Shown piece by piece: positions 10,210 to 64,000 of a DNA stretch of 64,000 nucleotides. The notes beneath the pieces were generated by a model. The model ran no database searches. It was not told the DNA's origin and was given only the letters and a program-made list of their open reading frames with translations. The stretch's first letter is position 1. Every line of letters begins with the position of its first letter. Source of the stretch: Botryllus schlosseri (taxonomy: Eukaryota); the NCBI GenBank assembly GCA_051294905.1, contig CM119371.1:4652001-4716000 (forward strand), given 5' to 3'. The position numbers and the translations under genes were made by a program.

Positions 10210-13200
10210 TACGTTCCTCAGAAACTGCCGAAAACCGGCTGAAACATGGCGCCCAAAATTTTGGAAAGCCAACTACAGAGTTTCAACTGAAAGTTTTTCG
10301 TATGTCTTGGCAAAATCTAGTTCTTGATTAATTTGATTTTGAATCAAGTATTACATTTCAAGTCGCGTACTCGAGTTTCATTCATCAACACTAGAGCCCA
10401 ACCGCTATCATATTTCTGAGCTGATAGGGACAAGCAGCACCTTCAATGATAACCACGATATATTCAGGCTATAGTGAAATAATATGGCAACTAGTTTAAG
10501 ACATATTTCCAAACGTTCAGAGCATTTATTTGAACAACTTTGCTATACTTATGTATGAAATAAACGAGAAAGGATGCATCTCAACGCATCCAAGCAGAGT
10601 CAGTCAGTAGCAATAGTAGCCTACCTCTACTTTCGCAGAATACTCAATAAGGTTTTGACCCGCATTTTCACCCTTATTAGTAGTGATGACTCTGAGACGA
10701 CTGCAAGAACATCACTCAACGAAAATCCGGTATCATGATTCACGACAAACGAATACACGTGTTTTCTAGTTTATCGGCAACTAAAATATTTTTGCATGCA
10801 CAAGTAGAACTACAGAACTACTCACTTTTTAAAATCTGCAACTAAGTTAAGTAATTATCTGAATTACAGGCATTGCTTCTGAAGTAGCATGAGAAAGTCA
10901 AATGTGTCAAGATATCGGTCTCCATCGAAATTTGAATCACAAGCACGTCGTTTGATTTCACAGATTGTTCCAAGACAAGGATTTAGTCTGTATCGTTCTT
11001 GAGTTGTGTAAAAGAAGGGTAAAGGTATTTCCTCATTACAAATGTAATATACCTCTAACTGTGCCGGCCGAAAATGCATTAGAACTGTAATGTGCATGAC
11101 TAGCAGACTTCTACAACCAGATCATTATTGCTCTGGCTAAATATGGTAAAATGCTTATAATGTAATTCTAATCTAATTAGTAAACTATTTCTATATATAT
11201 AGTGTGAAACAAGTCAAGATTGGTGAACAGTTATTTACTATTCTCATGCTCATGATAATCAAATCTGATTTGATATGAACTGAACTTGATTTCTTTTCCA
11301 ACTAGGCAATTGTGATTCTAATCTAATTTGGAAAATTTTGTTTCATATAATTAAAATTCTAATCTAGTTTGGATAATGTGTTCATTTTTTTCTGACGCAG
11401 CTGCGATCACTTGGGCTGTGCACAATAATTTGATGACTCAAATCTGAATCGAGTATCAATTCTAATCATTTGAGTCGAGCGGTAGGCACTGATTGTTTCG
11501 AGTACTGACAATATACGCTCCATGCCACAAAAGGAAAAAATTATATTACCAATAAGCTGAACTGAACCAATGGGAATTATACTTTCGATAATATTTCTCA
11601 CCGTGAAAAGCTGTAAACCTCTATTGGTCTTATCGCAGCATACGAAACACGTAGTACAAAGCTACTCACGTTACTGAAAATGACATTTCTGCGAAGTCGG
11701 GACCAACCTAAAGCATTGTCCCATAGTACGATGAAATAGCTATGGTCATAAAGTGAAATATAATCTTTATGACGTGACTAGAACCGGCATTATGTTCCTT
11801 GTGGTGTTGCTGTGACGTTAACATGAGTGACTCAAGCTCATTATTTGATTCAGAATCAAATCACTCACATACTCTATTTTAGCCAGCCCTATTTATCACA
11901 CGTTCATTATCATTAAGCAAGTATTAAATGAAGTTTATAGTTTGGAAGGTTCACCAGTCTGCAAAAACTGTTGTCCCATCTGACCGTCCCTCTAACTCAG
12001 AAAGGTTGAGAATTACTGTCCAACAAATAATATTGTTATTCTCATTCCAGTAGACCAGCTACCTTATTATTTGTTGTCAGTCGCTGATGGAAACTACAAA
12101 AGAAGATGCGCCATCACAGAACCAGAGACTTGGTGTTGTTTGGTTTCGTGATTGTAAAATCATTCACAGAGATATCAAGGTAACATTATTTGCAGTAGTG
12201 CATTCATAAATAATCTTCGAGAATGATGTCAGAACTAGAGCCGACTGATGATTGGTTCGTCAATTTTGGGATATAATTATGCACATTATGTACCATCAAC
12301 GTAAAATGATTGATGGCGCTACAAGCTCTCTAAAGTGGACTTGTACAAACCACTGGATTTTCAACATGTGCGACAAGAATTAGAACTGCTTACTTTTCTT
12401 AATTCTCTACTTGAACCAACGATCATTGAAAATCTGCTACTAACTAACTAATACATAACACACTAATGATTGTTTGGTTACAAAATTACAAATGAGCTGA
12501 GAAATATCGGGGATAGAATTGGCATCTTAAATTGACGGGGTTTCGAGTTTAAAACGGGAGTGGTTTTTGACCCATAATACTCAGCCCTGCCTATACCACT
12601 GTTTGGCGTGATCACTCTGAGTCAGGGTTGTAATTCAAGTTGCGATTTTCAGTGACTCGACTTGACTCGAGTCATTTGTTCAAATGACTGAAATGACTTG
12701 TCTCGAGACTAGGACTGTCACTGTAACTTCGAAGAATAGTAAAGTCACCACATAATTGGTGTTTCGTATAGTAGTCCTGATACTTAAAAATAGGGCCAGA
12801 AACTGTTAAACTGAGGAAAATAACGATATTATCAGTGTGAACCATTCTATATCACTCGACGACAGTTGGAAAATGGTGATTGAACCAGATTGGACTGATA
12901 ATGGAACAGTGAACATAATGACTTGCACTCAGACTCAGATCTTTACTAGCTGATTTGGATTCGGACTTGACTCGATGGTGAATTGGAAATGACTCGACTT
13001 GATTCGAGTGAAAACTACAAAAGTGAGATTGACTTGTGACCTGGTTACAACCCTCCCCTGAGCTAGTAAAGTCTGCAATAATATCATGCAACAGAACACC
13101 GGTATCACGACGACATACATTTTCGAGTTGTCGGCAACTACATTTTTTGAATGAACCACTCACTATTCAAGATCCGCAACTACAAACAAACAAACTTACT

Positions 13201-16079
13201 TTTATATTATGCAACTAAAACCTGAACTCCTCAGTAATTGAATATTTGGTAATTGAATATGAAAGTTGTATCGACAGCTTGGAATCTATTCCTGAACAAT
13301 ATGAAGATGAAGATCGGATATCTCGGAGAGATGTCATCCTGGCTACCAAAGTCGACTTTGACACAAAAATACTTTTTGTGGCACACCCAACTATATTGCC
13401 CTGGAAGTTGTTGGAAAAAATGGGCACAGTTTCGATGTAGAGACCTGGTTGTTGGGCTGTGTTTTGTGAGTATGTAAGAACATTCATGTGAAACTTTATT
13501 AAAAGGGAATTCCGAGGGTCTCAAGTGTAGGACTGGGAGATTCGAGCAACTGAGTGATTTGATTCTGAATCCAATGTAAGCCTTAGAGTCCAGTATCCGA
13601 GTATCTCTCAATATGACGTCATAGAAGTATGAATAATGTGGAAAGTACAGATACATACTTTCACGCGAGCACAAAAATATAATGCCAGATCTACAATTTT
13701 GCATCACATTGAAAATGATTGCGTATATTTTTGACCACGCCAATTCTATTGCACTTTGTGACTTCACAGACGCTGCCCAATAGATTTGGCTCAATTCCAA
13801 ACAGCCGAATCGCAGCAGAGCCAATTGAAATTTTTGAATTTATTTAAAAAGGTAAAATTTTACTGTTAATCCGATGAAATTGCGAAGTTGCCCAAAATAA
13901 TGATGACAGTTTTCGCTCACTTCTAACCAACCCTACTTGACAGTGCTGCCAAATCTATAATTTCTGTCGAGTAGCAAGGATCGTATCATTTCGGTGCTCA
14001 AAAAATCATCTCTCATTACTCGACTGCAATCATTGTGCCCAACCTTAGCTACTGCATATTGCAGAGGCTTCTAACGTTATTATCAGCGAATCTGGTCAAA
14101 ATCAAGCATCTTGGTGATTGGATTACGTGGCCTGTAGCCTGTATCCTGCCAACAATCTGTGCGAATTCGAGTTCTTGTCTGGTTCCATGCTGAGTATAGA
14201 TTTGTCTTTTTATGAGGTCATAAAACCTACCAATCCACATTTTAACCTATTATGCTTTTGCGAAGGAAATGAATTTTTTCAGCCCTCGTCACAATTGCAG
14301 TGCAATTATTTCAAAATTGTATCATCTCACTTCTGTACTAATACAGAGACACAGAAGCACATATGTGACAAGCAAGAAGCGACCATTATTTGCAGTAATC
14401 AATAATTAGACTTTTATATGGCAGAATTGGAAGCTCAACTAAAGAAATTAATGCGCACCAATCCGACTTTGAAGTTTGCTATAAATATAGGTTGGTATTT
14501 ATGAAATCAGTAGCCTAATTGATTTCATTTTTAATCGACTTCCCTCTTACATGTAGGCCTACTTGTACGAATCAGAGATTTTATAGCATTCATGACTTTC
14601 ACAACTGAAGAATATCATAAATTCTCTGTGCAAATCCAGTTTGTCAAATGACATTGACGCAAATCTGACCGATACCTTGAAATCAATGTCAGTCTCAAAT
14701 TCATGATAGATCCAAGTTACGGCTGTTGCTCGCATGTGACGTTGTCGAGAAGATTGTTGACGCTTGGGCTGTGCAGAATTAATCCAGTGGGTGCTTGAAT
14801 CTGAATCGGGCATTATTTTTCTTGATTCCAGACTAATAGTGAGAAACGATCGGTTCCATCACTGAAGTCCCAGCGCTCCTTATTATTCAGAGTTGATTGA
14901 TCAATGAAAATGATTTCTTCGATACTCATGTCCACTATGCATACCTGTAAACTATGATTGGTCGTCTCGCGACATACTTAACATGAGGTACAGGCATGCA
15001 CGCCTATTAGTGGAAACCACATATCTGTCAAGTCGTGATCATCCTACAGCATTGTCGGTTTATCGGTTAAAAAAAAATTGTTGTCAAATTTTACAGGCCT
15101 GCTAAGTCAAAACGGTTGAGAAACACTGATTTAGACGTTCCCAACAAATAATATTGTTGTTTTCATCCTGTCACTCCGATTACCTTTAATTTATGTTTTC
15201 AGTCGCTGATGGAAGTTTACAGAAAAGACGGGCCATCACAGAAGCGGAGACTTGTTATTGCATGCGACAGATTCCGATCAACGTCGTTATCTTCACGATT
15301 GTAAGATCATTCACAGAGATATCAAGATAATAATTGTAGTGTAATTGTCTAATAAAACTAATTCGAGCGAATGCCTGTAATCTAATTCAAATCTAATTTG
15401 TCAAATTTTTCTATGCTGCCATTAATCTAATTTCTGGTTTTCCTGTAATTGCTACAGGGGAACCGTGTCGTGCGAAACCAACCAAGATTGATATACAGGC
15501 ATTTGCCATTCTTGCGCTGATGAGAATGAATTCTGGTTTGATATCAACTGATCTTCATGTCCAAGGTTTTTGTCAATTAAGTAATTCTAATTCTAATCTA
15601 ATTTTCAAAAATCGGTGTAGCTATCATTGTAATATTCTGAATTGGAAAAAGCTGTGTAGCTATAAGTCAAATTCTACTCCAATATGGAGAAAAAACTTGG
15701 TAGCTGTGATTTCAATCGTAATCTAATTTGGAAAAGTTGAAAATTATCTAGTGGATAAAGTCTACAAATAGGCATATCCTGATACTTGAATCTCGTCCTA
15801 CCAAACACGGAAATAGTATACCATTTCAAATCCAAATCCTGATTCCCAAACAATCTCATAAAAATGTGAGTTACTAGCTGTGATTTTATTACTATTCATG
15901 ATTTTATCAGCAGAATGTTTGCATGTGACCCCTCTCAACGACCCGCTGTAAAGGAAGTGCGGCCGAGCAAGTATTTCAAATGCTACATTCCACAGAAACT
16001 GCGCAAAACCTGTTAATCATGGCGCCCAGGATCTCGGAAAGCCAACTACAGCGAAAGCAACCTTTATAGAGTTTGAACA
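10210..16079 (+). pseudogene. PLK1: Scrambled-order PLK1-like pseudo-exon cluster
   Basis: 10210-~10287 (YVPQKLPKTG*NMAPKILESQLQ), 10870-11018 (..[32 protein letters not shown]), 12081-12179 (..IIHRDIK), 13278-13465 ([41 protein letters not shown]), ~14334-14490 (linker, DFYMAELEAQLKKLMRTNP), 15203-15326 (..YLHDCKIIHRDIK), 15914-16079 (MFACDPSQRPAVKEV..YIPQKL). Stops and frameshifts throughout. Confidence 0.88.
12623..13055. mobile_element. Non-autonomous hAT-type element with GACTCGAG/GACTT arrays
   Basis: Termini cagggttgtaa / ttacaaccctc; degenerate 8-bp TSD ctctgagt / ccctgagc. The paralogous empty site gtgactctgagctagtg is at ~3307-3323. Same family as 43984-44557 and 47769-49247. Confidence 0.75.
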
Positions 16080-17409
16080 GTGAGATTTTTTTCTAGCTCT
16101 TAGCAAATTAGAGTTCGAGTTTAATTTGATTCTAAATTGAGTGTTACGTTTCTAGTCGCGTACTCGAGTCTCATTCATGATAACTAGAGCCCGACCGATA
16201 TCGTATTTTTTTTAGCCAATACCGATAAGTAGCACTTTCACCTACAACTCCCGATATATTCGGCTGATATTGAAACAATATGGCAACTATCGTAAGGCAC
16301 ATTTCCAAAACTTTAGAACATTGATTTGAACTTTAGAGCCGTTGCTATACTTGGACATGAAATATACTATAAAGACTGCATATGTACACTTGTATGCAGA
16401 GCCAGTCAGTAACAATAGTAGCCAACTTCATTTTTTTCAGAATACTCAAGTAGGTTTTGCCGTGCACTTGCACTAATACTCGAGTCACTCAAATGTTTCT
16501 AGACTACTTTTGTACCTCCTATGTAACAGTTCAGTTTTTTGGCAAAACCAGGTCTGGAATACTTGCTTGAAATCGCTACTGCTGCTTGTGCTCGAGTAGA
16601 CATTTACAATGTTACTTCTACTTCAATCCTCGAGTACCAACGTGACCACTTGTAAGTTAAGAGATATAGATGAATATTCCCGATGTAGCAAACGCAAATA
16701 ATAGTTTTCCCTGCTACCCGGTTGTGACGTCACAGAAAGTGCCGATATTTTTACCTCTCATAGCTGATATAGGTCCAGCTCTACTATGGACTCGATATGA
16801 CTGGCCAAACGATATCATCGGTCTGGCTATAATTACAACTTATTTAAATAAACCTCATCTCCTGACACTCATGAACTGGCAATATCTCCTGATTGTAAAA
16901 TTCATCTCTAGTTCTAGTTCTAAACACATTCCATAGGGCCGCATATGGAACTGCTGAAATACAATAATCATTTTTGATTAGTTTTAGTAACTCAATTCAA
17001 CTCAAATCCGGGTTAAAGATCCCTAATTAACCAACTAATATGCCTAACTGATGATACGAAATACTGAATTTCATGCACAAATAGAACTAGAACTACTCAC
17101 TTTTCAATATCCGCTACTGAATCTAGTACCCTGTATCTGAATTATAGGCATTGCTCGCGTATGATCACCAGAAAGAAAATGTATCTCAAGAGATCATAAA
17201 TATCGCAGTTTGAATCACAAGTACGTCGTTGGATTTCACGGATTCTTCCAAGACAAGGATTTTGTCTACATCGTTCTCGAGTTTGTGCTAAAAAAGGTAA
17301 AAGCATTTCCTTGTTGGAAGTGTAATGTCTCTCAAACTATGGAGCTCGCAATTGCATCAGCTATGTAAGGTTCATTTCTGGCAGACTTTGCCAACTAATT
17401 GATATAAAG

Positions 17410-18981
17410 CAGAGGTCTCAAACACGCGGCCCGCGGGCCGCATGCGGCCCTCGAGAACATTTTGTGCGGCCCGCGAAGGCATTTTTCAATTTCAAGTATT
17501 CGACAATATATTCTAGTGTCATATATCTTTTTTTATATTTAGGAACTTAAAGTTCACTCAAAAACTACTACAAAAACCTGAAATCTAAACAAACTTCACT
17601 ATCACATCACTTTCTAAAATCTACTATGCAGTGGAAGATCGCTATTACGTCACATTTCTGGTTCATGATGACAAAACATGAGCCGTTGATGATTCGTGAC
17701 TGAAAATTGTGATTTTGTGTGGTGCGACCTTTAGTCAAATTACTCAATTTTGGATTGACTGGGTGATAAACTAAAATTGACTCGAGTTGAGTAGGGTCGA
17801 ACGTTGAAATCAGAGAAGGACTTGTCTCTCGGAATAGTGACTTGGCAATCCTACGGACTCAAAAATCTATGAAACTGTCGTAGGGAATAGTAATATATCA
17901 AAAGCCCGTAGCTTGCGTTGCGTAGGTTATATAGAATATAGAAATACAATCAGGTCTGTATGGAAACCATTGGCATTCTGTGGCCCCCGTGACGTAGATT
18001 TGGTTACATCCTGGATGTTGTTTGTTCTCTCTGTCCATGTTATTACCGGTGGCGAGTAAGTTAGTAGTACGCTCAACAGCTGTAACACCAATGGATTCTT
18101 CGGCGATTAGTCATTTCTATTCCAGGGGTTCATAACCAGGGGTCCGTATCCCCTTCGTGGTACAAAGCACCACATCAGGGGGTACAAGATGCATTGTGGA
18201 AATTGGCCTATATGCTGTGGAATCTTTTCTGGGCTAATTAATTCAACTGGAAAACATTCTTCGCGCTACGCTCGATTTTATTTGAACGGACATTCTGATT
18301 TTTACATAGGTCCCAGCAGAAACAGTGTTAAAAATCGACAGGGGTCACTGGAAATCTAATTGAAAGTACAAGGGGTACGATCGCTAAAACGGTCAAGAAA
18401 CAATGCTATTACTATGGAACAATAATGATTATATTTAAGTTGTTATTGATATGTTCCAATATTAATCGAAGAAAACCTAACGCTGCTTTAATTTGACTTT
18501 GACAATGACAGTCACAATAGCCTATACTTATCACGAGTATATCAGAAACCCCGATTCGGCTACACCGTTCACATGCTCTGATATCAGATCAATCTTTAGT
18601 GAATTCTAAAATATTCTACATAAAATTGTGGCATTTCAAAGGTCAAATAACTGCAATATTACAACCCGACAGCTTTTACGATATCATCATGCGTCCTCTC
18701 GCATGATGTCTAAACTCATTATTTCTAACAAATTATGCCCGGCAAAAAAAAACGATTCTATTCAAATATTTGAAAATGTGATTTTTTCGTGTCAAGCATG
18801 AATAGTATAATAGTAAATTATATTTTCTCGGTGGCTGTGAAATGCCTGTCTGGAAGGTGCCGTTAAATAAGGCCTAGTTGGATATTATACATTGAATACC
18901 CCTATTTCTTGATGCTGCGGCCCGCGGGTCATCACAAATTAGGAAATTGGCCCGCGAGCACATTTGAGTTTGAGACCTCTG
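17410..18981. mobile_element. Non-autonomous hAT (Charlie-like) DNA transposon
   Basis: Perfect 14-bp TIR cagaggtctcaaac / gtttgagacctctg; perfect 8-bp TSD ATATAAAG (17402-17409, 18982-18989); gcggcccgc subterminal motifs. Absent from the mirror arm (~58700). Confidence 0.92.
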
Positions 18982-20445
18982 ATATAAAGTGTACAGATTT
19001 TTGGTGTATTTCTTTTGCAAATTTAGTAATTCTAGTCTCATTCGTGAAAAAAAGGATGTAGCTGTAATTCTAATTCTGAGCACATTTGAAAAAAAAAATG
19101 GTAGTTATCATTCTAATCTAATTTGGAAAAATATCCAGCTGAGTACTCGGATCTGAATCGAGTATCAATTCTAATGATTTTGATTCAAGGTGTGAGCCAT
19201 GAATTTTGTTCGAGTACTGGAATGATAAGCTCTCTGCCACAATAGTCAAAATGATTACTAATAAACCTAGCTGAGAGTTAATTTACCAACGAGAATTGGC
19301 GTGGAAGGCTGTAAACCTGAATCGGACGTACGCAGCATAGCTACATAGGTTTCTGAAAAATCACATATTTGTGAAGTCTTGGTCAACCCAGAGCATTGTC
19401 AAAGAGTGCGGTCCATAAAATGTCAAATAATCTTCAATGTGATGCATAACGGGGATTGGACTCTTTGTGGTTGCATGGAAGGTGCATATTTGAACTTTAT
19501 ACATCATCCACGCTGTTGTTATGACAAAATGAGTTTTACTGATATAGTCGACGTGACTCGAAGCTCAATACTCGGTTCAGTTTCAAATCAGTCAGGTATT
19601 CGATTTTGCACAGCCCTACGTATAACAAGTCTAATATAAAAATAGCAGCGTGGTATTAAGTTTCTAACTTGTAAGGTTCACCGATCTGTAAAATTTGTTG
19701 TTGAATTTTTACCCGCCCCCGAGCTCAAAAAGGTTGAGGACCACTGATTTCTATGTACCCAACAAATACTGCTATTGATTTCATTGTATCAATCCGATTA
19801 GCTTTGATTTCCATTGTCAGTGGCCGATGGATCTCGACAAAAGAAGACGCGTCATCACAGAAGCAGAGATTCGTTCTTGCATGCAACATATTCTGCTTGG
19901 AGTCGTTTATTATTTTCACGAGTGTAAGATCATTCGCAGAGATGTCAAGGTAACATTGTTTGCGGTGGTTCCAGACAGTGCAAACTGGTGGATTTTTAAT
20001 ATGTGCAACTACAACTAGAACTACTCATTTTTCAAAACTCGTAACTAAAACTAGAACCAACAACCGTTAAAAATCCCAACTAACGAACTAAAATATAGCC
20101 AAGTAATGCCTGATAATTTAATTTCTGAATTGCAATTGAGCTAAGAGATATTGAAGATAAAATCAGCAGTTCAAGCTGAATTGGTTTCGGGTTTCAAACG
20201 GGAGTGGTTTCGACCACCCAATACTCCCCTGATTATACCACTGTCTTTTGGTAGTGATGACTCTGAGGTCCCAATCTCTGCAACATCATCACGCAACAGA
20301 ACACCGGCATCATGATGACACGCATTTTCTAGTTGTTCGGCAACTACGTTTTAATGCACAACATGAACTGGAACTGCATACTTTTAAAATACGCAAATAT
20401 AAAACTAGGACTACTCAAAAAGCAGCAGCTACTGTAGTTCGCTAT

Positions 20446-30932: not shown

Positions 30933-31039
30933 ATCGGTGTTCGGCTGCACTCTGCTTCAAGAGAATCCCGCTGCGTAGAACACTTTTAAAAAGTGTTCAC
31001 ACACCGTGAATGGTTTGAGCAGAAACAAGTACTAGAAAC

Positions 31040-55100: not shown

Positions 55101-58100
55101 ACATCCCTACATTCAAGTGTGCAGGTTCGGCTTTTCTAGTTTATTTCAAATCCAAACATAACAAGAGCTGTAAATCTGTTCAATTAAATGCTCTGTACTT
55201 TTGAAAATGCGACTTTCGTTACATGTCATATCTTCTGAATATCAGATTTATTGGTGAAGGTGCTAGTTACCGGTCTTATCGGTATCGGATAGGGTTTCAA
55301 CAAAGATTCTGAGTCACGAGTCAATCTTTTTTCTATGGTAATTACTCCAATCATATTCATTTACCAAACAAGTCAAGTCCAAGTCAGAGTGTTGAGACTC
55401 GAGTTCCAACCCTAGTCATGTTCAGCTCCTAGGATTCTAAATACCCTCGTTTATCTCACTCTCAACCAGATATGCTCTGTAAAGAAGTGATTTTACTTTG
55501 TCAAAGTACTCAAGTAGGTTTTGTCTACTTGCAATACTTACTCAAGTGGTTATGATAGTAGAGAACTGTCATTTCTCCACCACAATTTTCGGTTCTCAAT
55601 CCAAAACTAGACCTGGTACATTGACCTTTTTACGTACTTGATAATCGCAACTTTTAGTTTTACTGGAGTGTAAATTTACGTCGTTACTTCTACTTGAGTA
55701 CCAGTGATGTCTACTTTGACCACATCTACTCTCAATTGGCTTATTCAAACATAAAAGACACTTTCTGGCTCGATTTGCCGTAAGTTTTACGACTTCGTTA
55801 AGTCATGGGCGATGACTTGAGTCGAGTCATGACTCGCGTCCTTATGACCCCGGTTTGGCTCAAAGATCCAATATTGGTCGTGCTCTCATCGTAACTAAGG
55901 CTGCGCACAATGGTTCAAGCAGTCTAATTTGAATCAAGTATTTATTCCAATGATTCCGATCGACAAGTTAGAAATGATTCTCTCCAGTGCTAAAATGATA
56001 CTCAAGATGCTAACACTCGATTTTGACCATCCATAACCATATTAAAGACTTGTAAAAATCTCACTTTTGAAACTTGGCTCCAGTTGACTCTCCGATATTC
56101 TAGGCGTGATAGCCAAGCAGGTGGTCGGCAGTTCTTGTGGAATGTCGCCTTGAAAGACGCATTTGAAAGTGCGTGATCCACGGTAGTTCATTCTCATGGG
56201 TCAATCGACAACAATCTGTGAAAATCATGGTAGGTCAAGTGTTGGAAACGAGTCACTATGTTCAAGTCACAAGTCATATCGAGTCATTGCATATTTTAAA
56301 TCGATTCAAGGTGCTCCATTTTTCGAAGCAAGTCAAGTTACTCGATTTTTGAATGGGACTCGAGTTGAGTCAAGACACTTGACAAAGTTGACGCGGTCAT
56401 CCCAATACTGTGGAGCACATTAGAAAAAAGGCAAAAGAGTTATAACATACCTTTTGATATGATCACAAGCTGGTGGGGATTATTTTGTAGAATCGTCTAT
56501 TCATTCTTCTCCTAATGAAAGTTTCCTGCAACGTCTGGCATTCAAGCGGTAGCTCACCGACCAACAATGCATATACCTACGATAAAGAAAAACATGCATC
56601 AACTTATCAAGTCGGATGTTTGTTGCTAATGCTGGCACAATGATTCGCGTCGAAAAGTAAGAGATGATTATTTCCAGTTCTGAAATGAAAGGCTACTTGC
56701 CACAATCAGTTAATTTTATGAACCAGAATTATGATTTTGCCGCCATTTTATAACGTGTAAGGCTGTAAACCTCGATTGACCGTATCGCAGCTTAAGACAT
56801 ATGTAGTATAAAGGTACAGGGTTAGTGGAAATGACATATATATCAAGTCGCGATCAAGTCACAGCAATGTCACATAATACAATGAAATAGCAATGATTGA
56901 AACGATACAAAATTATTTTATGTGATGTAGAAATGGCATTACATTATTTGTGGTCGCATATTTGAAGTATCCACAATTTCCATAACGTCATGCCGTCACA
57001 ATAGGTGATAGTCAAATACTCAACCTGTAGCCTAGTACTCGGATCAGGCTAAAATCAGTCAGGTACTCGATTTAGCCCAGAATTAGATTTAAGACCCTTG
57101 CGACCTATTTTTATAAAAATCCCTAATCAATAATGCTATTGGTGCATCATACTCACAAAACACAACCAAGGTGTCCACTTCGCAACTGTGTCCATCCTTG
57201 CCGAGAACTTCCGGGTCGTCGATATAGTCGGGAGTGCAGCAAAGAGTATTCATTGTGTGGCTTTCACAGTCGACCTTGGTATCTCAACTGAAATCTTCAA
57301 ACTTTTCCATATTGTTCAGGAAGAGGTTCTCCAGCTGTCAGTTAAAATTTTACATCAAGTTACACAAGTATATCAAGTTTCACAAACTACCAATCCAGTT
57401 AAATGATGGCGAACTACGGTAACTGCTGCTTTCTTGAGTAGTTCTAGTTTTAGTTGTATATTTGTGTATTTTAAAAGAGAGCAGTTCTAGCTCAAGTTGT
57501 GCATTTGACTAAAAATGTAGTCGCCAATATCTCCAATATTTCTTAGCTCACTTGTAATTCAAAAATTAAATTACCAGTTATTTGCTTAGCTACAGTTTAG
57601 TTAGTTAGTTGCAGATTTTCAACGGTCGTTGGTTATAGTTTTAGTTACGAGTTTTGAAAACTGAATACCTTAGTTCTAGTTGTAGTTGCACATGTAAAAA
57701 ATCCAACAGTTTGCACTGTCTGTAACCACCGCAAACAATGCTACCTTGATAGCCGTGTGAATAATCTTACAATCGTGAAGGTAAACGACTCCAAGCAGAA
57801 TCTGTTGCATGCAAGAGCGAGTCTCGGCTTCAGTCATGACGCGTCTTTATTTATCAATGCCCATCGACCACTGTCAATGAAAATCAAATCTAACGGGATT
57901 GATAGAATGAAATTATTAGCAGTATATGTTGGGTACATAAAAATCAGTTGTTCTCAATCGTTTTGAGCTCGGGGCAGGTAAAAATTAATCTACAAATTTT
58001 ACAGATCAGTGAACCTTCATAGTTAGAAACTTCATATCACGCTGCTATTTTGATATTTGACTTGTTATACGTAGGGCTGTGCAAAATCGAATACCTGACT

Positions 58101-58941
58101 GATTTGAAACTGAACCGAGTATTAAGCTTCGAGTCACGTCGAGTATATTAGTAAAACTCATTGTGTTATAATAACAGCGTGAATGATGTATTAAGTTCAA
58201 ATATGCACCTTTCATGCAACCACAAAGAGTGCAATCCCTGTTTTGCATCACACTGAAGATTATTTGACATTTGATGGACCGCACTCTTTGACAATGTGCT
58301 GAGTTGACCAGGACTTCACAAATATGTGATTTTTCAGAAACCTGTGTATAGCTATGCTGCGTACGTCCGATTCAGGTTTACAGCCTTCCACGCTAATTCT
58401 CGTTGGTAAATTAACTCTCTGCTACGTTTATTAGTAATCATTTTGACTATTGTATCAGAGAGCTTATCATTCCAGTACTCGAACAAAATTCATGGCTCAC
58501 ACCTTGACTCAAATCATTAGAATTGATACTCGATTCAGATCCGAGTGCTCGGCTGGATATTTTTCCAAAAGATTAGAATGATAACTACCGTTTTTTCTCA
58601 AATGTGCTCAAAATTAGAATTACAGCTACATCCTTTTTCACAAATCAGACTAGAATTACTAAATTTGCAAAAGAAATACACCAAAAATCGGTAAACTTAT
58701 CAATTAGTTGTCAAAGTCTGCCAGAAATGAACCTTATAGAGCTGATGCAATTGCGAGCTCCACAGTTTGAGAGACATTACAGTTGTAACAATGAAATGCT
58801 TTTACCCTTCTTTTGGACAACTCGAGAAACCTTGTCTTGAAAGAATCTGTAAAATCCAACGACATGCTTGTGATTCAAACTGCGATATTGATGATCTCTT
58901 GAGATATATTGTCTTTCTGGTGATCATACGCGAGCATTTGC
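52108..58941 (-). pseudogene. PLK1: Near-complete PLK1/polo pseudogene, mirror copy
   Basis: Minus-strand exons 58941-58806, 57870-57745, 57334-57157, 56576-56451, 56215-56065, 54918-54795, 54248-54184, 53077-52880 (CKLCDDSNDVLFNSSTLILL*..HIDRD..LLKYFCNYMCEHLIK) and 52327-~52108 (DHTKVILYPM..VIYIDRERHFTTYKFKLLQKY). Stops and frameshifts present. Confidence 0.92.
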
Positions 58942-61900
58942 CTATAATTCAGATACCGGGTACTAGTGTTAGTTGCGAATTTTGAAGAGTAGTTCTAGTT
59001 CTATTCATTCATTCAATAGAACTTTGGTTGTCGATCAACTAGAAAACGAATGTCAACATTTGGTGTGAGTCATGATACCGGTGTTCTTGCAGCCAGCTCA
59101 GAGTCATCGCCACTATGAAAGAAGTAGCACCGGGGTGGTTTTACAATCAAACCCGACTGATTTTAAACCCGAAAACATGTCATATTGAAATGCCGATTCT
59201 ATCTCCAATATTCATTAGCTCATATAAAATTCAGTATTCCGTATAATCAGTTGGGCCTATTAGTTAGTTAATTAGGGATGTTTACTACGCTTTCACCCGG
59301 ACTTGAGAAGAATTGAGTTACTAAAACTGATCAAAAAGGATCATTATACTTCATCAGTTCCATATGCGGCCCTGCAGAATGTGTTTAGAACTAGGACTAG
59401 AGATATATTGTAGAATCAGAAGATATTACCACTTCATCAATGTCAGTAGATGGTTTATTTTTAAAAGGTATAATGATAGCCCGACCGATGACATCGTTTG
59501 ACTAATAATATTGAGTCTCTATTAGAGTTTGAATTATATCAGCCATGAGAGGTGAAAATATCGGCAATATTTGTGACGTCACGACATGGTAGCAGGGAAA
59601 ACTATTATTTGCGATTGCAACATCGGGAATATTATCTATCTATTTCTCATAACTTACAAGTGGTCACGTTGGTACTCGAGTATGGAAGTAGAAGTAACAT
59701 TGTAAATGTCTACTCGAGCATACGCAGAAGTAGCGATTTCAAAGTAGGTACGTTATTAAAGCAAATATTCTAGAACTGGTTTTGCCGAAAAACTGAACTG
59801 CTACATAGGAGGTACACAAGTCGTCTAAAATATTGAGTGACTTGAGTATTAGTGCAAGTATACGGCAAAACCTACTTGAGTATTCTGAAAAAAATGAAGT
59901 AGGCTACTATTGTTGCTGACTGGTTCTGCATACAAGTGTACATATGCAGTCTTTATAGTATATTTCATGTCCAAGTCTAGCAACGGCTCTAAAGTTCAAA
60001 TCAATGTTCTGAAGGTTTGGAAATGTGCCTTACGCTAGTTGCCATATTGTTTCAATATCGGCCAAATAGACCGGGGTTGTAGGTGAAAGTGCTACTTATC
60101 GGTATTGGTTCAAAAATCTGATATCGGTCGGGCTCTAGTTACGATGAATGAGACTCGAGTACACGACTCGAAACGTAAAACTCGATTCAGAATGGAATCA
60201 AACACGAACTCTAATTTGCTAAGAGCTAGTAAAAAATCTCACTGTTCAAACTATATAGAGGTCGCCTTCGCTGTAGTTGGCTTTCCGAGAACCTGGGCGC
60301 CATGGACAAGCAGGTTGTGGGCAGTTTCTGTGGAATGTAGCCGTTGAAATACTCGCTCTCCAGCACTTTCTTTACAGAGGGTCGTTGAAAGCGGTCGCAT
60401 GCCAACATTCTAGCGACAAATCACAAATATTAACAAAATCACAGATTAAGTATCATATTTTTATGAGCTTGTTTGGGAATCAAGATTTGTGGATTTAAAA
60501 CCATAATATCAATCAAAATTTGAATTTGAAATAGTAAACTATTCCCGTAGTTCGATAGGAAGAGGTTCAAGTATCAGGATAAACCTAATTTTGACTTGAT
60601 AAACTGAAAAATTTTTCACCTTTCCCAAATTAGATTACGATTGGAATCACAGCTGCCAAGTTTATTTTATCCATATTAGAGTAGAATTAGAATTATAGCT
60701 ACACAGCTTTTTCCAGATCAAGATAGTACAATGATAGCTATACAATTTTTTACGAATTAGATTTCAATTTGAGTTGAAACAGTTTTACTTCGAAGTAGAG
60801 TAGAATGATAGCTACACAGATTTTTCAAAATTAGATTAGAATTACAATTACAATTCCTGAAATCCTGAATTGACAAAACTTGGACATCGAATGAAGTTCA
60901 GTTCATATAAGCACAAGAATCGCTTATGTCTATTGTACATCGAGCTTGGTTGGTTTTGCAAGATACAGTTCTCCTGCAAAAAGTTCAGAAAAACCAGAAA
61001 TTAGATTAATAATAACATAAAAAAATTTGGACGAATTAGATTAGAATTAGATTACAGGCATCCGGTTATAAGCTTTATTATTAAACAATTACACTACAAT
61101 TATTACCTTGATACCTCTGTGAATGATCTTACAATCGTGAAGCTAACGACGCCAATCAGAATCTGTGGCATGCAATAACGAGTCACTGACTTCTTCGTAA
61201 ACTTCCATCAGCGACGGAAAGCATATATTAAAGGTAATCGGATTGATTGGATGAAAACAATAAAACTATCTGTTGGGAACATCTAAATCAGTGGTTCTCA
61301 ACCTCTTTGACTTGGCGGGCCTGTAAAATTTGACAACAAATTTTTTGAACCGATAAACCTTCGTAATTTAAAATTTTATTTCATGCTGCCATTTTGATAT
61401 CCGACTTGTTACACGTAGGGCAGTTAAAATCGAGTACCTGGGTGATTTGAAAGTGAACTAGTAGGCTTCGAGTCGAGTGTTCGATAAGCGCTTATTATGA
61501 TGCCATACCCGTGTTGATGATGAGGAAAGTTCAAATAGGTAACTACAACCAATATAATGCTAGTCCTACATCACATTAGAGACGATTTTGTATCCTTTGA
61601 ACATACCTATTTCATTGCACTCTTCGACAATGCTGTGGGTTGATCACGACTTCACCGGTATGTGATTTCCAGTAATATATGCGTCATGCTTGTGCCACAT
61701 GTAAAGTATGTTGGGATACGACCAATTGAGGTTTCCAGCTTTGCACAGTGCACACGAGTATCGAAGCAATCATTTTCGTTGATCAATCAACTATGAATAA
61801 TAGGGAACGCGTGATTTCAGTGATGGAACGGATCGTTTCTCATTATTCCACTGGAATCAAGAAAAATAATGCGCGATTCGGTTTTAAGCACCCACCCAAT

Positions 61901-64000
61901 TCATTCCGCACAGCCCAAGTGCCAACAATCTTTTCGGCAACGTCACATACGAGCAAGAGCCGAAATTTGGATCTATGATATCTCTATAACTTGACATGAA
62001 TTTGAAAATGACATGGATTTCAAGATATCGGACAGATTTCCGTCAATGTCAGTTGACAAACTTGAGTTGCACAGAGAATGTATGATATTCTTCAGTTGTG
62101 AAAGTCATGAATGGTATAAAATCTCTGATCCGTACAAGTAGGCCTACATGTAAGAGGGAAGTCGATTGAAAATGAAATCAATTAGGCTACTGATTACATA
62201 AATACCAACCTATATTTATAGCAAAATTCAAAGTCGGATTTGTATGCATCAATTTGAGGTTCCAATTCTGCCATATGAAAGTCCAATGATTGATTACTGC
62301 ATATGATGGCCGCTTCTTACTTGTCACATATGTTTCTGTGTCTCTATATTAGTAGCACCTGTCAAGTAAAGAAATAAGATGATACAGCTTTGAAATAATA
62401 GCACTGCAATTGTGACGAGGGATGCAAAAATTCGTTTTCTTTGCAAAAGCATTTTCTTCGCATTTTCTTCGCAAAATCATAATAGGTTAAAATGTGGATT
62501 GGTAGGTTTTATGACCTCATAAAAAGAAAGTCTATACTCAGCATGGAGCCAGGCAAGAACTCGAATTTGCACAACTTGTTGGCAGGTTACAGGCTACAAT
62601 ATTACCCTAGTTTGACGCTTGATACCCAACACGTAACCCGATCACCAGGATGCAGGATTTTGCCAAGTCTTGCTGATAATAACGTTAAAAGTCTCTGCAA
62701 TATGCAGTAGCTAAGGCTGGGCACAATGATTTGAGTCGAGTAATGATTGAGGATGTTTTCGAGCACCGAAATGATACGATCCTTGCCACTCGACAAAAAT
62801 TATAGTTTTGTTAGCACTGTCCACAAGGGTTGTTCAAAAACAACTTTTTTTCTTCAGATTCTGGGGATTCACCGATCAAGTTGTTAGGTTGCCTAAAAAA
62901 GGCTGCACAACAAATTTTGCTCAATTCCAATCAGCCGAATTCAATCAAAATTTTTGTCTTTATTAAAACAAATTTTTTTTTTGTAAATTCTATTGTCAAT
63001 CCCTTTAATTTGTTAAGCTATCTGCAAAAACAATACAAAAGAAATTTGACGCGATTCCAACCCGTGGAAGCAAAGTGATTTGATTTTTTCATCTATTTTT
63101 CTGGGATTAGCCTACCCACCATCAATGCTATTTTTGCGAATCCAAACCAGCAATAACTTCACTACTACTGGTTGGAAGTGAGAGAGAATTGTTATGCATC
63201 ACTCTTTCAGGCAATTTCATCGGATTAACAGTAAAATTTGAAAATATGTAATTTTTGTATAAATTTAAAAATGTCAATCGGCTCTTCCGCGGCTTCGGCT
63301 GTTTGGAATTGAGCCATATTTGATGGGCAGCCTCTGAGAGGTCATGATCTACCCACAGCATTGTCACTAAGTGGAATGAAATAGGTGTGGTCGAAAAGAT
63401 ACGAAATCATCTTCAATGTGATGCAGAATTGCAAATATGGCATTATATTTTTGTGGTCGCGTAAAAGGTACTTAACCGTACTTCCCACATCCTCCATACT
63501 GTTATGACGTCATATTGAGTGATACTCGAACACTCGACTCTAATGCTAATACTGGATCCAGAATCAAATCACTCAGTTGCTCGAATTTTCCCAGTCCTAC
63601 CACTGAGACCCTCACGATTCCCGTTTAATAAACTTCCAGATAGATGTTCTTATATACTCACAAAACACAGCCCATCGAGCAGGTCTCCACATCGAAACTG
63701 TGCCCACTCTTTCCGATAACTTGCGGGCAATATAGTTGAGGGTGCGGCAAAAAGTATTTTTTGTTTGGCCGTCAAAGTCGACTTTGGTAGCCAAGATGAA
63801 ATCTTTGATCATCACCTCCATATCGTTCAGGAATAGATTCCAATCTGTAGATATAAATTCAATATTCGATGACACAGGTATACAAACTTGTACAAACTAC
63901 CAATGTAGTTAGTTGGTGGTCCACTCACAACTGCCATTTTGAGGAGTTCTGGTTTTAGTTGAATAATGTAAAAGCAAATTGTTGTAGTTGCATCTACAGA
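52210..64000 (-). repeat. Right arm of large inverted segmental duplication (continues past the window end)
   Basis: Reverse complement of ~13170-26070; the last bases of the window still align to ~13175-13225. Confidence 0.93.
60243..63844 (-). pseudogene. PLK1: Mirror copy of the scrambled PLK1 pseudo-exon cluster
   Basis: 63844-63662 ([40 protein letters not shown]), 62358-62210 (linker), 61214-61107 (..LHDCKIIHRGIK), 60409-60243 (MLACDRFQRPSVKKVLESEYFNGYIPQKLPTTCLSMAPRFSESQLQRRRPLYSLN). Confidence 0.9.

What the first reader, a model, noticed from the sequence alone, without database searches (positions are those of the whole stretch)
13170..64000. Giant tail-to-tail palindrome built from amplified PLK1/polo pseudogenes
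Seen: ~12-13 kb arms (13.2-26.1 kb on +, 52.2-64+ kb on -) are reverse complements across 13 PLK1-like exons and their introns, around a ~26 kb spacer rich in transposons and containing one ZNF gene. The arms are clearly diverged (many substitutions and indels by eye), so this is neither a fresh nor a fully homogenised palindrome. Established: PLK1/polo is an essential, normally low-copy mitotic and meiotic kinase; inverted pseudogene duplications can yield dsRNA/endo-siRNA, and ampliconic palindromes occur on sex-limited chromosomes. Inference: this may be a polo-derived small-RNA or antisense locus, or the relic of a germline amplification or conflict episode. It could also be neutral debris.
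Basis: partly seen in the sequence, partly recalled or inferred. Interest (0 to 1): 0.75.

Follow-up and report, generated by a model that had tools for sequence, protein, structure and literature searches.

The report
Old palindrome in PLK1-pseudogene/zinc-finger amplicon field
The inverted repeat is real and over twice as long as reported, but it is an old, decayed inverted duplication inside a 2.5-Mb field where living zinc-finger genes were repeatedly copied together with dead pieces of the cell-division kinase gene PLK1.

Summary
Observation confirmed and enlarged. The tail-to-tail inverted repeat exists: 13.25-26.07 kb (+) against 63.87-52.2 kb (-). With 20 kb flanks the symmetry runs from window -1561 to 26072 and from 52215 to 80736, giving arms of 27.6 and 28.5 kb, a 26.1 kb spacer and about 82 kb in all.

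Each arm carries intron-bearing, broken PLK1 fragments. There are 13 exon remnants in the reported arm, from three partial copies. Each arm also carries two poly-C2H2 zinc-finger genes. The larger ZNF is open in both arms (790 and 905 aa) with omega 0.13 on the scaffold and 3.4 at contact residues. The PLK1 remnants evolve near-neutrally.

Arm divergence is mosaic (K2P 0.05-0.22). A sister palindrome lies at C1 5.08-5.12 Mb and shares arm-specific stop codons. Genome-wide, 77 of 84 PLK1 exon-6 remnants and 17 of 17 close ZNF paralogues lie on the same contig at 4.03-6.51 Mb. The remnants form 20 blocks of alternating orientation around two intact PLK1 genes.

Best reading: passenger pseudogenes in a ZNF-cluster amplification. 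Two RNA runs gave no transcript signal on the arm. No small-RNA data were available. Moderate interest; new member of a known kind.

The parts
1..26094 (+). Left arm of the palindrome. It continues 1561 bases left of the window. Homology to the right arm ends at 26072; the PLK1 exon-11 remnant runs to 26092.
26095..51871 (.). Spacer, about 26 kb, enlarged by transposon insertions. Its rightmost ~0.3 kb (51872-52214) is homologous to the arm ends of paralogous copies, so it was once part of the arm.
51872..64000 (-). Right arm of the palindrome. It continues to about 80736, i.e. 16.7 kb beyond the window end.
853..4602 (+). PLK1 pseudogene fragment F1: exon remnants E1, E2, E3, E4 and E6 with stops and frameshifts. 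Only E1 has a mirror in the right arm (76445-76266).
4655..6201 (.). Copy of a dispersed ~1.6 kb element, 93% identical to 29291-30886.
6716..9085 (+). ZNF-A: open 790-aa poly-C2H2 frame with 27 fingers and HTGVKNY linkers. Its mirror copy at 71167-68453 (-) is an open 905-aa frame with 29 fingers.
10201..10278 (+). PLK1 pseudogene fragment F2: part of E6, with a stop.
10893..14489 (+). PLK1 pseudogene fragment F3: remnants of E2, E3, E4 and E7.
15220..16081 (+). PLK1 pseudogene fragment F4: remnants of E3 and E6.
17148..26092 (+). PLK1 pseudogene fragment F5: E2, E3, E4, E5 (weak), E6, E7, E8 (weak), E9 and E11. E1 and E10 are absent. The HRD motif reads RRD.
17404..18987 (.). Dispersed ~1.58 kb element inserted in arm A only. 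Arm B is contiguous at 58698. The listing shows 35 full or near-full genomic copies at 84-94%.
28134..28496 (+). Reverse-transcriptase fragment (RVT_1, E 1e-10) within a very high-copy repeat.
29291..30886 (.). Dispersed ~1.6 kb element with 35 copies at 93-96% in the listing.
34134..37378 (.). ~3.25 kb element with ~310-bp terminal inverted repeats. Copies at 96-98% lie on other contigs.
45339..46205 (+). C2H2 zinc-finger ORF in the spacer (289 aa open frame), related at 72-76% to the outer ZNF-B arrays.
52216..58943 (-). Mirror of F5 in arm B: E11, E9, E7, E6, E5, E4, E3 and E2, carrying its own stops.
60241..61264 (-). Mirror of F4 in arm B (E6, E3).
62211..63839 (-). Mirror of F3 in arm B (E7, E4). 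It continues outside the window to E2 at 65942-65817.

Best explanation
This is an old inverted segmental duplication with arms of about 28 kb. It lies inside a 2.5-Mb ampliconic cluster on one contig (C1 4.03-6.51 Mb). That cluster grew by repeated direct and inverted duplication of cassettes. Each cassette holds poly-C2H2 zinc-finger genes together with intron-bearing fragments of the neighbouring PLK1 gene.

The zinc-finger genes are the selected cargo. Their frames are open, the finger scaffold is conserved and the DNA-contact residues have diversified. The PLK1 pieces are unprocessed pseudogene passengers. They were already truncated when the inversion arose and have since decayed at close to the neutral rate.

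After it formed, the palindrome (or large parts of it) was copied again to at least one other site, at 5.08-5.12 Mb. Patches were exchanged among paralogues in both orientations. Transposons inflated the spacer.

Shown: the structure, the copy distribution, the decay of PLK1, the selection on ZNF-A and the mosaic similarity. Inferred: that ZNF expansion drove the amplification, and that the PLK1 remnants have no function.
For: Structure: 15 collinear inverted blocks align 18,400 of the 27,701 left-arm positions. No mirror was found beyond -1561/80736 within the 20 kb left and 40 kb right flanks examined, apart from one 462-nt match at 72%.

PLK1 remnants are dead:
- Every fragment lacks exons, and both arms share the same fragment order and the same absences (no E1 or E10 in F5).
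- Aligned codons carry 16 stops: 2 shared, 8 in arm A only, 6 in arm B only.
- 21 of 26 indels within the exon remnants are not multiples of three.
- Exon remnants are no better conserved than the flanking DNA (p 0.156, n=1627, against 0.124, n=12374). Codon positions differ at 0.151, 0.134 and 0.181.

ZNF-A is alive. It has open frames of 790 and 905 aa. Omega is 0.13 on the finger scaffold and 3.41 at positions -1, 2, 3 and 6.

Field:
- The exon-6 peptide of the intact gene finds 84 matches, with all 109 candidates scored. 77 are on C1 at 4.03-6.51 Mb.
- After merging overlaps these are 74 sites in 20 orientation blocks, with 9 convergent and 10 divergent switches.
- All 17 ZNF-A matches that span the whole query at 75% identity or more lie on C1 at 4.09-6.50 Mb, with no internal stops.
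- By my comparison, all 17 have the orientation of the nearest PLK1 pseudogene block.

Sister palindrome at C1 5.08-5.12 Mb. Its - arm shares arm B's stops and its + arm shares arm A's. Sequence at arm B's inner junction is shared with it.

Mosaic similarity: A-B K2P is 0.05-0.22. B against the 5.1 Mb - arm is 0.011-0.10. B against the 4.25 Mb + copy is 0.013 in one block.

Parent genes: two intact 11-exon PLK1 genes lie at C1 5.79 Mb (-) and 6.29 Mb (+).

RNA: depth is 0-1.6 per bin across arm A in a bulk run (12.9 M reads read) and, apart from the bin just 3' of ZNF-A and one bin over the inserted element, in a single-cell run (22.2 M reads). 0.96 and 0.69 of the laid reads run on into unlike sequence.
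Against: Pooled omega of the PLK1 remnants between arms is 0.53 (bootstrap 95% CI 0.40-0.72). A neutral null run through the same pipeline has median 0.73 (0.54-1.02), and only 1.9% of simulations were as low. So a weak trace of past constraint, or conversion from constrained copies, cannot be excluded.

Most stops are private to one arm. Much of the point-mutational decay therefore came after the inversion.

The pseudogene exons keep exact matches of 23-43 nt to 7 of the 11 functional PLK1 exons. The arms share 138 perfect runs of 21 nt or more. Small-RNA targeting is therefore possible on sequence grounds.

The contact-residue omega for ZNF-A could be inflated by register shifts or by conversion within the finger array.

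Expression of ZNF-A rests only on a sense-strand single-cell read pile just 3' of the ORF (9768-10434, depth 12.9). Those reads carry variants that could come from a paralogue.

That ZNF expansion drove the amplification is inferred from co-location and orientation. It is not demonstrated.
Confidence: 0.7

Rival explanations
1. Small-RNA source. Convergent or read-through transcription of the two arms (or of the many oppositely oriented copies in the field) gives double-stranded or antisense RNA. This is processed into endo-siRNAs or piRNAs that tune PLK1 in the germline, as hairpin-RNA loci and pseudogene-derived siRNAs do elsewhere.
For: The arms derive from PLK1 exons. Exact matches to functional PLK1 exons reach 43 nt (E6), 30 (E3), 29 (E7), 28 (E11), 25 (E2) and 23 (E1, E9). 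138 perfect arm-to-arm runs of 21 nt or more cover 4,049 nt. The field holds copies in both orientations. RNA-seq can be depleted inside strong hairpin arms (passages read in PMC10317233), so low long-RNA depth is not decisive.
Against: Arm identity is only about 82-85%, with many indels, and the spacer is 26 kb. Known hairpin-RNA loci are described with near-perfect duplex arms inside one transcript (PMC10317233, passages). No transcript-like coverage was seen on arm A in two RNA runs. No Rfam family matched in the window (0 matches). The exon remnants are not conserved relative to the introns.
Confidence: 0.1
2. Relic of a selected PLK1 amplification. PLK1 copies were once functional and were amplified by selection (dosage, germline conflict or drive). 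They later decayed, and the zinc-finger genes are bystanders or suppressors.
For: An unusually large number of PLK1-derived pieces: 84 exon-6 matches. Two intact PLK1 genes. 14 of 16 stops are private to one arm. Omega is marginally below the neutral null. Separate polo-box-only copies are dispersed on three other contigs.
Against: The fragments in the window are structurally incomplete in the same way in both arms and in the sister palindrome, so they were fragments before these duplications. None of the copies examined in 234 kb of the field is intact. The zinc-finger genes keep open frames throughout.
Confidence: 0.12
3. Mobile palindrome. The structure is a foldback-type or other transposon that captured PLK1 and ZNF fragments and spread as a unit.
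For: At least two palindromes share junction sequence.
Against: All amplicon matches to arm sequence outside the inserted 1.58 kb element lie on C1 at 4.25-5.12 Mb, not dispersed. The spacers differ (26 against about 13 kb). The arms carry ordered, intron-bearing host gene pieces spanning tens of kb.
Confidence: 0.05
4. Assembly artefact: a false inverted duplication made by the assembler.
For: Ampliconic regions are prone to misassembly. No read or contig examined bridges the inner junction; the best piece reaches only 22 nt past it.
Against: False inverted duplications are near-identical; that statement is recalled, not tested here. These arms differ by 5-22%, with arm-specific transposon insertions and arm-specific stops. 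Arm-A-specific sequence is found without differences in contigs of a DNA run, although that run may be the assembly's own source.
Confidence: 0.03

Closest known systems
Clusters of poly-C2H2 (KRAB-type) zinc-finger genes expanded by tandem and segmental duplication in vertebrates
   Same: Many paralogous poly-ZNF genes sit in a Mb-scale cluster (17 close paralogues in 2.4 Mb). Finger number changes between duplicates (27 against 29). Divergence between duplicates concentrates at DNA-contact residues. PMC3126818 (passages read) describes expansion by repeated segmental duplication and signs of positive selection at contact residues in paralogues.
   Different: No KRAB domain was found in the ORF scanned (upstream exons were not examined). 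The linker is HTGVKNY rather than the usual vertebrate linker (the vertebrate form is recalled). The host appears to be a tunicate. Here the cassette drags about 80 pieces of an essential kinase gene with it.
Unprocessed (duplicated) pseudogenes carried in gene/pseudogene cassettes, e.g. the mouse Mup cluster
   Same: Intron-bearing gene copies with stops and frameshifts, amplified together with a living gene, in both orientations.
   Different: For the Mup paper (PMC2441477) I saw only the search listing and the start of the abstract. The cassette detail is recalled. Here the pseudogene and the living gene belong to unrelated families.
Arm-homogenised ampliconic palindromes of sex chromosomes
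   Same: Large inverted arms around a unique spacer, in an ampliconic region. There is some evidence of past exchange between copies (A-B K2P is 0.05 in one block against 0.22 in another).
   Different: Arm identity is about 82-85%, not above 99% (the latter figure is recalled). The arms' namesake gene is dead. Each arm's nearest relative is often a copy elsewhere rather than its partner.
Drosophila hairpin-RNA (hpRNA) loci derived from inverted duplication of their target genes
   Same: Inverted repeat built from pieces of a protein-coding gene located elsewhere. siRNA-length exact matches to that gene remain.
   Different: hpRNA arms are near-perfect duplexes inside one transcript and yield Dicer-2-dependent siRNAs (PMC10317233, passages). 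Here the arms are diverged, lie 26 kb apart and show no transcript signal. Small RNAs were not examined.

Membership tests
Unprocessed (DNA-duplicated) pseudogene of PLK1 | Derived from the named parent gene | tested here: met
   PLK1 is the best PDB match, ahead of PLK3, PLK2 and PLK4. Exon peptides of the genome's own intact PLK1 match the remnants at 44-93% identity in the matches with E below 1e-5.
Unprocessed (DNA-duplicated) pseudogene of PLK1 | Keeps the parent's exon order with intron-sized gaps (not a retrocopy) | tested here: met
   F5 runs E2 to E11 over 8.9 kb, against 11.8 kb in the intact gene, in the same order. One match extends about 200 nt into flanking intron.
Unprocessed (DNA-duplicated) pseudogene of PLK1 | Disabling lesions | tested here: met
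   Missing exons in every fragment. 16 stops at aligned codons. 21 of 26 indels break the frame.
Unprocessed (DNA-duplicated) pseudogene of PLK1 | Neutral evolution | tested here: inconclusive
   Exons are not conserved relative to the flanks. But omega is 0.53 against a neutral null median of 0.73, with 1.9% of simulations as low.
Arm-homogenised ampliconic palindrome (sex-chromosome type) | Large inverted arms around a spacer | tested here: met
   Arms of 27.6 and 28.5 kb and a 26.1 kb spacer.
Arm-homogenised ampliconic palindrome (sex-chromosome type) | Arm-to-arm identity near 100%, kept by ongoing gene conversion | tested here: not met
   K2P between arms is 0.05-0.22. Arm B is closer to copies 0.4 Mb away, at 0.011-0.013.
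Arm-homogenised ampliconic palindrome (sex-chromosome type) | Intact multi-copy genes in the arms | tested here: inconclusive
   PLK1 copies are broken. ZNF-A is open in both arms but only 80% identical over its N-terminal part.
Arm-homogenised ampliconic palindrome (sex-chromosome type) | Sex-limited or germline-restricted chromosome | not testable with these tools
   No sexed or tissue-resolved DNA coverage was available.
Hairpin-RNA / endo-siRNA locus | Arms homologous to a target gene | tested here: met
   Exact matches of 23-43 nt to 7 of 11 functional PLK1 exons.
Hairpin-RNA / endo-siRNA locus | Near-perfect duplex arms within one transcript | tested here: not met
   The aligned part of the arms is about 85% identical. 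The longest perfect run is 65 nt. The spacer is 26 kb.
Hairpin-RNA / endo-siRNA locus | Primary transcript present | tested here: inconclusive
   Depth is 0-1.6 on arm A in two RNA runs of unknown tissue, each sampled at 3-6%. Hairpin arms can be depleted in RNA-seq.
Hairpin-RNA / endo-siRNA locus | Dicer-dependent 21-22 nt small RNAs | not testable with these tools
   No small-RNA run was offered.
Segmentally duplicated poly-C2H2 zinc-finger gene cluster | Tandem C2H2 fingers with conserved linkers | tested here: met
   zf-C2H2 E 1e-154; 27 and 29 fingers; 84-bp period.
Segmentally duplicated poly-C2H2 zinc-finger gene cluster | Clustered paralogues | tested here: met
   All 17 matches that span the whole query at 75% identity or more lie on C1 at 4.09-6.50 Mb (150 of 2115 candidates were scored, so counts are lower bounds).
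Segmentally duplicated poly-C2H2 zinc-finger gene cluster | Purifying selection on the scaffold and diversification at contact residues | tested here: met
   Omega 0.13 against 3.41 between the two arm copies. Caveat: register shifts within the array could inflate the contact-residue value.
Segmentally duplicated poly-C2H2 zinc-finger gene cluster | KRAB or another N-terminal effector domain | tested here: inconclusive
   None among the 23 Pfam families hit by the 790-aa ORF. Upstream exons were not searched.
Foldback transposon | Dispersed copies across the genome | tested here: not met
   Arm sequence outside the inserted 1.58 kb element matches only C1 at 4.25-5.12 Mb, apart from one 69-nt match on C12 (40 of 13,429 candidates were scored).

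The most novel reading that the evidence does not exclude
The whole 2.5-Mb field acts as a dual-strand small-RNA cluster (piRNA or endo-siRNA). The field holds about 75 PLK1 exon-6 remnants in 20 blocks of alternating orientation, wrapped around the two functional PLK1 genes. In this reading its antisense products set PLK1 dosage in the germline or early embryo. Alternatively, the field records an arms race in which PLK1-derived sequences and fast-evolving zinc-finger repressors were co-amplified. The window's palindrome would then be one convergent transcription unit of that system.
Probability: 0.08. Interest if true: 0.75.

Novelty: new member of a known kind. Interest (0 to 1): 0.35.

Why it matters
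PLK1 is normally a single-copy essential mitotic kinase (recalled). Here one genome carries two intact copies and about 80 intron-bearing remnants packed into 2.5 Mb, interleaved with living, fast-diverging zinc-finger genes.

If the passenger reading holds, this is a clear and datable example of how a zinc-finger cluster in a non-vertebrate chordate grows by direct and inverted segmental duplication with patchy exchange. It is also a warning for gene annotation and copy-number calls of PLK1 in this genome.

If instead the remnants feed a small-RNA pathway, it would be a pseudogene-based control of a core cell-cycle kinase. The sequence potential is there, but no expression evidence is.

Tried and rejected
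- Pfam scan of 125 + strand stop-to-stop ORFs of arm A: only 5 weak Pkinase fragments, and no POLO_box at E below 1. The genome-wide POLO_box search also did not list the window's own polo-box remnants at E 0.001 or below. They are too decayed for the profile and were found only with tblastn.
- Maximum-likelihood trees: the tree programs could not be loaded (searches were not run). I used K2P matrices per block instead, so no rooted order of events is claimed.
- Run search: no RNA holder was listed for window 6201-16200.
- X10 is only guessed to be RNA. It covers 29 of 30 bins with a depth profile parallel to the DNA run, so I treat it as uninformative.
- DNA contigs were too short to bridge the inner junction.
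- Rfam: 0 matches at gathering score in the window.
- Literature: searches for polo-like kinase + tunicate + pseudogene (1 unrelated paper) and Plk1 + ascidian + paralog (6 papers, none from its title or abstract start about a PLK1 amplification) found no description of this field. A search on palindrome, inverted duplication, pseudogene and zinc-finger cluster gave only general analogues.
The outer limit on the left therefore rests on 20 kb of flank.
- Considered and set aside: retrocopies (introns are present), a haplotig duplication (arms too diverged), and a single inversion followed by independent decay (contradicted by the mosaic distances).

Full report
OBSERVATION

The inverted repeat is real. 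Of the 25 longest inverted pairs found in the window, 21 fall on a single diagonal joining 13.4-25.75 kb to 52.6-63.7 kb, at 80-96% ungapped identity. Gapped blastn gives collinear blocks from 13249-26072 (+) to 63873-52215 (-) at 74-89% identity, with bit scores up to 3993. The window has no N and an even 36-43% G+C.

The PLK1 attribution is also right. Two exon-sized open frames of arm A hit PLK1 kinase domains first among solved structures (E 2e-11 and 6e-4), ahead of PLK3, PLK2 and PLK4. They carry degenerate motifs: APE reads ALE and HRD reads RRD. A polo-box exon from the same genome retrieves ascidian PLK1 proteins as its best named relatives (77-80% for the named ones, 83-85% for two unnamed ones). 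The genome is therefore probably a tunicate's.

ANATOMY OF THE ARMS

I mapped exon remnants with tblastn, using a 572-aa relative (P0001) and the eleven exon peptides of the genome's own intact PLK1.
- E4 + E7, the tail of fragment F3, which starts at 10893.
- E3 + E6 (fragment F4).
- E2, E3, E4, E5 (weak), E6, E7, E8 (weak), E9 and E11 (fragment F5). E1 and E10 are absent.

Arm B repeats this order in mirror image. Further + strand fragments lie upstream: F1 at 853-4602 (E1-E6) and F2 at 10201-10278.

The exon order and intron-sized spacing match the intact gene: 8.9 kb for E2 to E11 in F5, against 11.8 kb in the gene. These are therefore DNA-level duplicates, not retrocopies.

THE PALINDROME IS LARGER THAN REPORTED

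The window lies at C1:4,652,001-4,716,000 of a 495.5-Mb assembly. I added 20 kb on the left and 40 kb on the right. The mirror symmetry then continues outward through four more segments:
- 12363-13929 against 64845-63169.
- 10201-11997 against 66611-64842.
- 9262-9803 against 67746-66824, at 88-93%.
- A 2.9-kb zinc-finger gene, 6222-9078 against 71694-68802, at 83.6%.

Beyond these come PLK1 exon 1 (765-1056 against 76543-76238) and a second zinc-finger array (-1561..92 against 80736..79094, 82%). Nothing beyond that is mirrored, apart from one 462-nt match at 72%. In particular, a further PLK1 pseudogene at -19.4 to -11.8 kb has no partner.

The arms are therefore about 27.6 and 28.5 kb, the spacer is 26.1 kb, and the whole structure spans about 82 kb. 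Fifteen collinear blocks align 18,400 of the 27,701 left-arm positions. One stretch breaks the symmetry: left 1056-6222 holds F1 exons 2-6 and a transposon copy, while the right arm (71694-76238) holds other repeats.

LIVING CARGO AND DEAD CARGO

The larger zinc-finger gene is an open frame in both arms: 790 aa at 6716-9085 (+) and 905 aa at 71167-68453 (-), with 27 and 29 C2H2 fingers. Between the two copies:
- The finger scaffold has omega 0.13.
- The four canonical DNA-contact positions have omega 3.41.
- Omega over all aligned codons is 0.38.

Register shifts in the array could inflate the contact-residue value. The outer zinc-finger gene is open on the right (777 aa) and split on the left.

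The PLK1 remnants look quite different:
- They differ between arms by p=0.156 (n=1627), against 0.124 (n=12,374) for other aligned non-coding DNA.
- The three codon positions change at 0.151, 0.134 and 0.181.
- Aligned codons carry 16 stops: 2 shared, 8 in arm A only, 6 in arm B only.
- 21 of 26 indels are not multiples of three.
- A further stop at the end of exon 1 appears in both arms' alignments to P0001.

Pooled omega for the PLK1 remnants is 0.53 (bootstrap 95% CI 0.40-0.72). A neutral simulation used the local substitution spectrum and the same filters. It gives a median of 0.73 (0.54-1.02), and 1.9% of runs were as low as the observed value. I read this as near-neutral decay with, at most, a weak trace of earlier constraint or of conversion from constrained copies.

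THE WIDER CONTEXT CHANGES THE READING

The genome has two intact 11-exon PLK1 genes on the same contig, at 5,790,872-5,807,149 (-) and 6,285,472-6,298,495 (+). Every matched exon gives the same peptide in both genes, and their introns are 84-96% identical.

The exon-6 peptide of the intact gene finds 84 places in the genome, with all 109 candidates scored. Two are the intact genes. 77 of the 84 lie on C1 between 4.03 and 6.51 Mb. After merging overlaps these are 74 sites: 51 on + and 23 on -, in 20 blocks of alternating orientation, with 9 convergent and 10 divergent switches.

The distinctive N-terminal 125 aa of ZNF-A find 17 matches that span the whole query at 75% identity or more. All 17 are on C1 at 4.09-6.50 Mb and none has an internal stop (150 of 2115 candidates were scored). 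By my comparison, all 17 point the same way as the nearest PLK1-pseudogene block. Of two more distant copies (60%), one agrees and one does not.

The window's ZNF-A is 94-95% identical to copies at 4.999, 5.424 and 5.609 Mb, but only 80% identical to its own mirror copy.

THE PALINDROME HAS RELATIVES

DNA of arm A (17.0-26.1 kb) matches only C1 outside one inserted element, apart from a single 69-nt match on C12. The C1 matches are at 4.253-4.2605 Mb (+), at 5.0917-5.0947 Mb (+) and at 5.108-5.1147 Mb (-).

The 5.08-5.12 Mb region is itself a tail-to-tail palindrome with a spacer of about 13 kb:
- Its - arm carries arm B's private stops and its + arm carries arm A's.
- The sequence flanking arm B's inner end (51.9-52.2 kb) recurs next to the arms there and at 4.26 Mb.
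- It follows that the ancestral arms ran about 0.3 kb further inward and that arm A was truncated later.

Per-block K2P distances are mosaic:
- A-B is 0.051 at 18990-19450, 0.109-0.143 in the middle blocks and 0.221 at 24864-26072.
- B against the 5.1 Mb - arm is 0.011, 0.013, 0.041, 0.081 and 0.102.
- A against the 5.09 Mb + arm is 0.154, 0.160, 0.106 and 0.059.
- B is within 0.013 of the 4.25 Mb + copy in one block, although that copy has the opposite orientation.

This pattern needs either patchy ectopic conversion or repeated partial re-duplication. It excludes a single event followed by independent decay. It also shows that the arms are not being homogenised with each other. I could not build rooted trees because the tree programs failed to load.

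SPACER

Pfam finds a reverse-transcriptase fragment (28134-28496) and a 9-finger C2H2 frame (45339-46205) among the 47 spacer frames scanned. Three dispersed elements stand out:
- A ~1.6-kb element at 29.3-30.9 kb has 35 copies at 93-96% in the listing. Another copy lies at 4655-6201.
- A ~3.25-kb element with ~310-bp terminal inverted repeats (34134-37378) has copies at 96-98%.
- A 1.58-kb element sits in arm A only (17404-18987). Arm B is contiguous at 58698.

DNA k-mer depth is hundreds-fold to thousands-fold higher at 26.4-27.1 and 28.4-29.1 kb than in the unique bins. The spacer has therefore grown by insertion.

EXPRESSION

No listed holder of the stretch is on record as RNA. I laid two raw-read RNA runs carrying the same species label on 9101-29100.
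- Bulk run: 12.9 M reads read, about 6% of the run. Depth per 667-nt bin over arm A was 0-1.6.
- Single-cell run: 22.2 M reads read, about 3% of the run. Depth was similar, with two exceptions noted below.
- 0.96 and 0.69 of the laid reads continue into unlike sequence.

Real pile-ups occur only on spacer repeats, and those reads carry fixed differences, so they come from other copies.

Two bins stand out in the single-cell run. One is a sense-strand pile at 9768-10434 (depth 12.9), just 3' of the ZNF-A frame. Its reads carry variants that could come from a paralogue or an allele. The other covers the end of the inserted dispersed element at 18.4-19.1 kb.

Tissue is unknown and no small-RNA library was available. 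A paper on hairpin-RNA loci notes that RNA-seq signal can be depleted in duplex arms (PMC10317233, passages read). This is therefore weak negative evidence only.

SEQUENCE POTENTIAL FOR RNA INTERFERENCE

The arms share 138 perfect runs of 21 nt or more (4,049 nt in total; the longest is 65 nt). The pseudogene exons in the 124 kb examined keep exact matches to the functional PLK1 exons of 43 nt (E6), 30 (E3), 29 (E7), 28 (E11), 25 (E2) and 23 (E1, E9). The small-RNA idea therefore cannot be excluded from sequence alone. No Rfam family matches the window.

INTERPRETATION

Most likely (about 0.7), the palindrome is one old inverted segmental duplication within a zinc-finger gene cluster that grew by copying cassettes in both orientations. 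Fragments of the adjacent PLK1 gene were caught in the cassette early and have been carried along as unprocessed pseudogenes.

The closest known kind is the segmentally duplicated poly-zinc-finger cluster of vertebrates. PMC3126818 (passages read) describes expansion by repeated segmental duplication and signs of positive selection at DNA-contacting residues of paralogues.

It is not a member of the arm-homogenised palindrome class, because arm identity fails. It is not a member of the hairpin-RNA class as defined, because duplex quality fails and the small RNAs are untested.

Rivals are:
- A small-RNA source (0.10).
- A relic of a once-selected PLK1 amplification (0.12).
- A mobile palindrome (0.05).
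- An assembly artefact (0.03).

My searches found no paper describing a PLK1 amplification in tunicates.

VERDICT

The functional interpretation is not supported but is not refuted. Novelty: a new member of a known kind. Interest is moderate. The unusual feature is the scale: about 80 intron-bearing remnants of an essential kinase gene, wrapped around its two intact copies.

Noticed in passing
G000 C1:5,790,872-5,807,149 (-) and C1:6,285,472-6,298,495 (+); loci L026-L029: Two intact 11-exon PLK1 genes in opposite (head-to-head) orientation about 480 kb apart. Every matched exon gives the same peptide in both genes, and their introns are 84-96% identical. A degenerate partial copy lies just 3' of the second gene (C1 6,302,411-6,308,499). 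An uncollapsed haplotype cannot be excluded.
   Followed up: partly
L031 (C8 20.707-20.712 Mb), L032/L033 (C16 22.46 and 22.49 Mb), L034 (C12 20.42 Mb): A ~3 kb piece of PLK1 carrying only polo-box exons E8-E10 is dispersed on three other contigs at 98.1-99.97% identity. It forms an inverted pair 25 kb apart on C16 (arms 99.8-99.97%). From the coordinates, a second inverted pair lies 41 kb apart on C12. The C12 and C16 copies share three stops. The C8 copy has none and also keeps E11. This could be a recent capture and spread by a mobile element, or a polo-box-only gene.
   Followed up: partly
window 9768-10434 (+): The single-cell RNA run shows a sense-strand read pile (depth 12.9) just downstream of the ZNF-A open frame, compatible with a 3' UTR. 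The reads carry variants (9809 T>A in 4 of 12, 9826 T>C in 11 of 16) that may come from a paralogue or an allele.
   Followed up: no
window 17404-18987: A ~1.58 kb non-coding dispersed element is inserted in arm A only. The listing shows 35 full or near-full copies at 84-94% on many contigs. It marks an insertion later than the inversion.
   Followed up: partly
window 34134-37378: A ~3.25 kb element with ~310-bp terminal inverted repeats (92% complementary). Copies at 96-98% lie on C10, C14 and C104. It is probably a young DNA transposon. No Pfam domain was found in its frames.
   Followed up: partly
window 4655-6201 and 29291-30886: Two copies (93%) of a ~1.6 kb dispersed element that has an internal inverted segment (positions 336-894 match themselves in reverse at 68-69%). 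The listing shows 35 genomic copies at 93-96%.
   Followed up: partly
window 12674-13020: DNA contigs of run X1 (up to 20 contigs per variant) join 12674 to 13018-13022, skipping about 345 bases. This looks like the empty site of a small insertion, seen either in paralogous copies or as a polymorphism.
   Followed up: no
window 11336 to 15582: DNA contigs (9-12 in X1, 1-2 in X10) join these two points, skipping 4.2 kb, with 20-23 nt on the shorter side of the joint. They may reflect a paralogue lacking this segment or a repeat-induced join.
   Followed up: no
G000 C1:21.89-22.15 Mb: A second cluster of more distant relatives of ZNF-A (44-71% over the N-terminal part), mostly with no internal stop, all on the - strand.
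   Followed up: no
G000 C1:4,998,817 (+), 5,424,340 (-), 5,608,611 (+): Copies of ZNF-A that are 94-95% identical to the window's copy over the N-terminal 125 aa. They are much closer than its own mirror copy (80%), which points to recent re-duplication or conversion of the ZNF gene itself.
   Followed up: no
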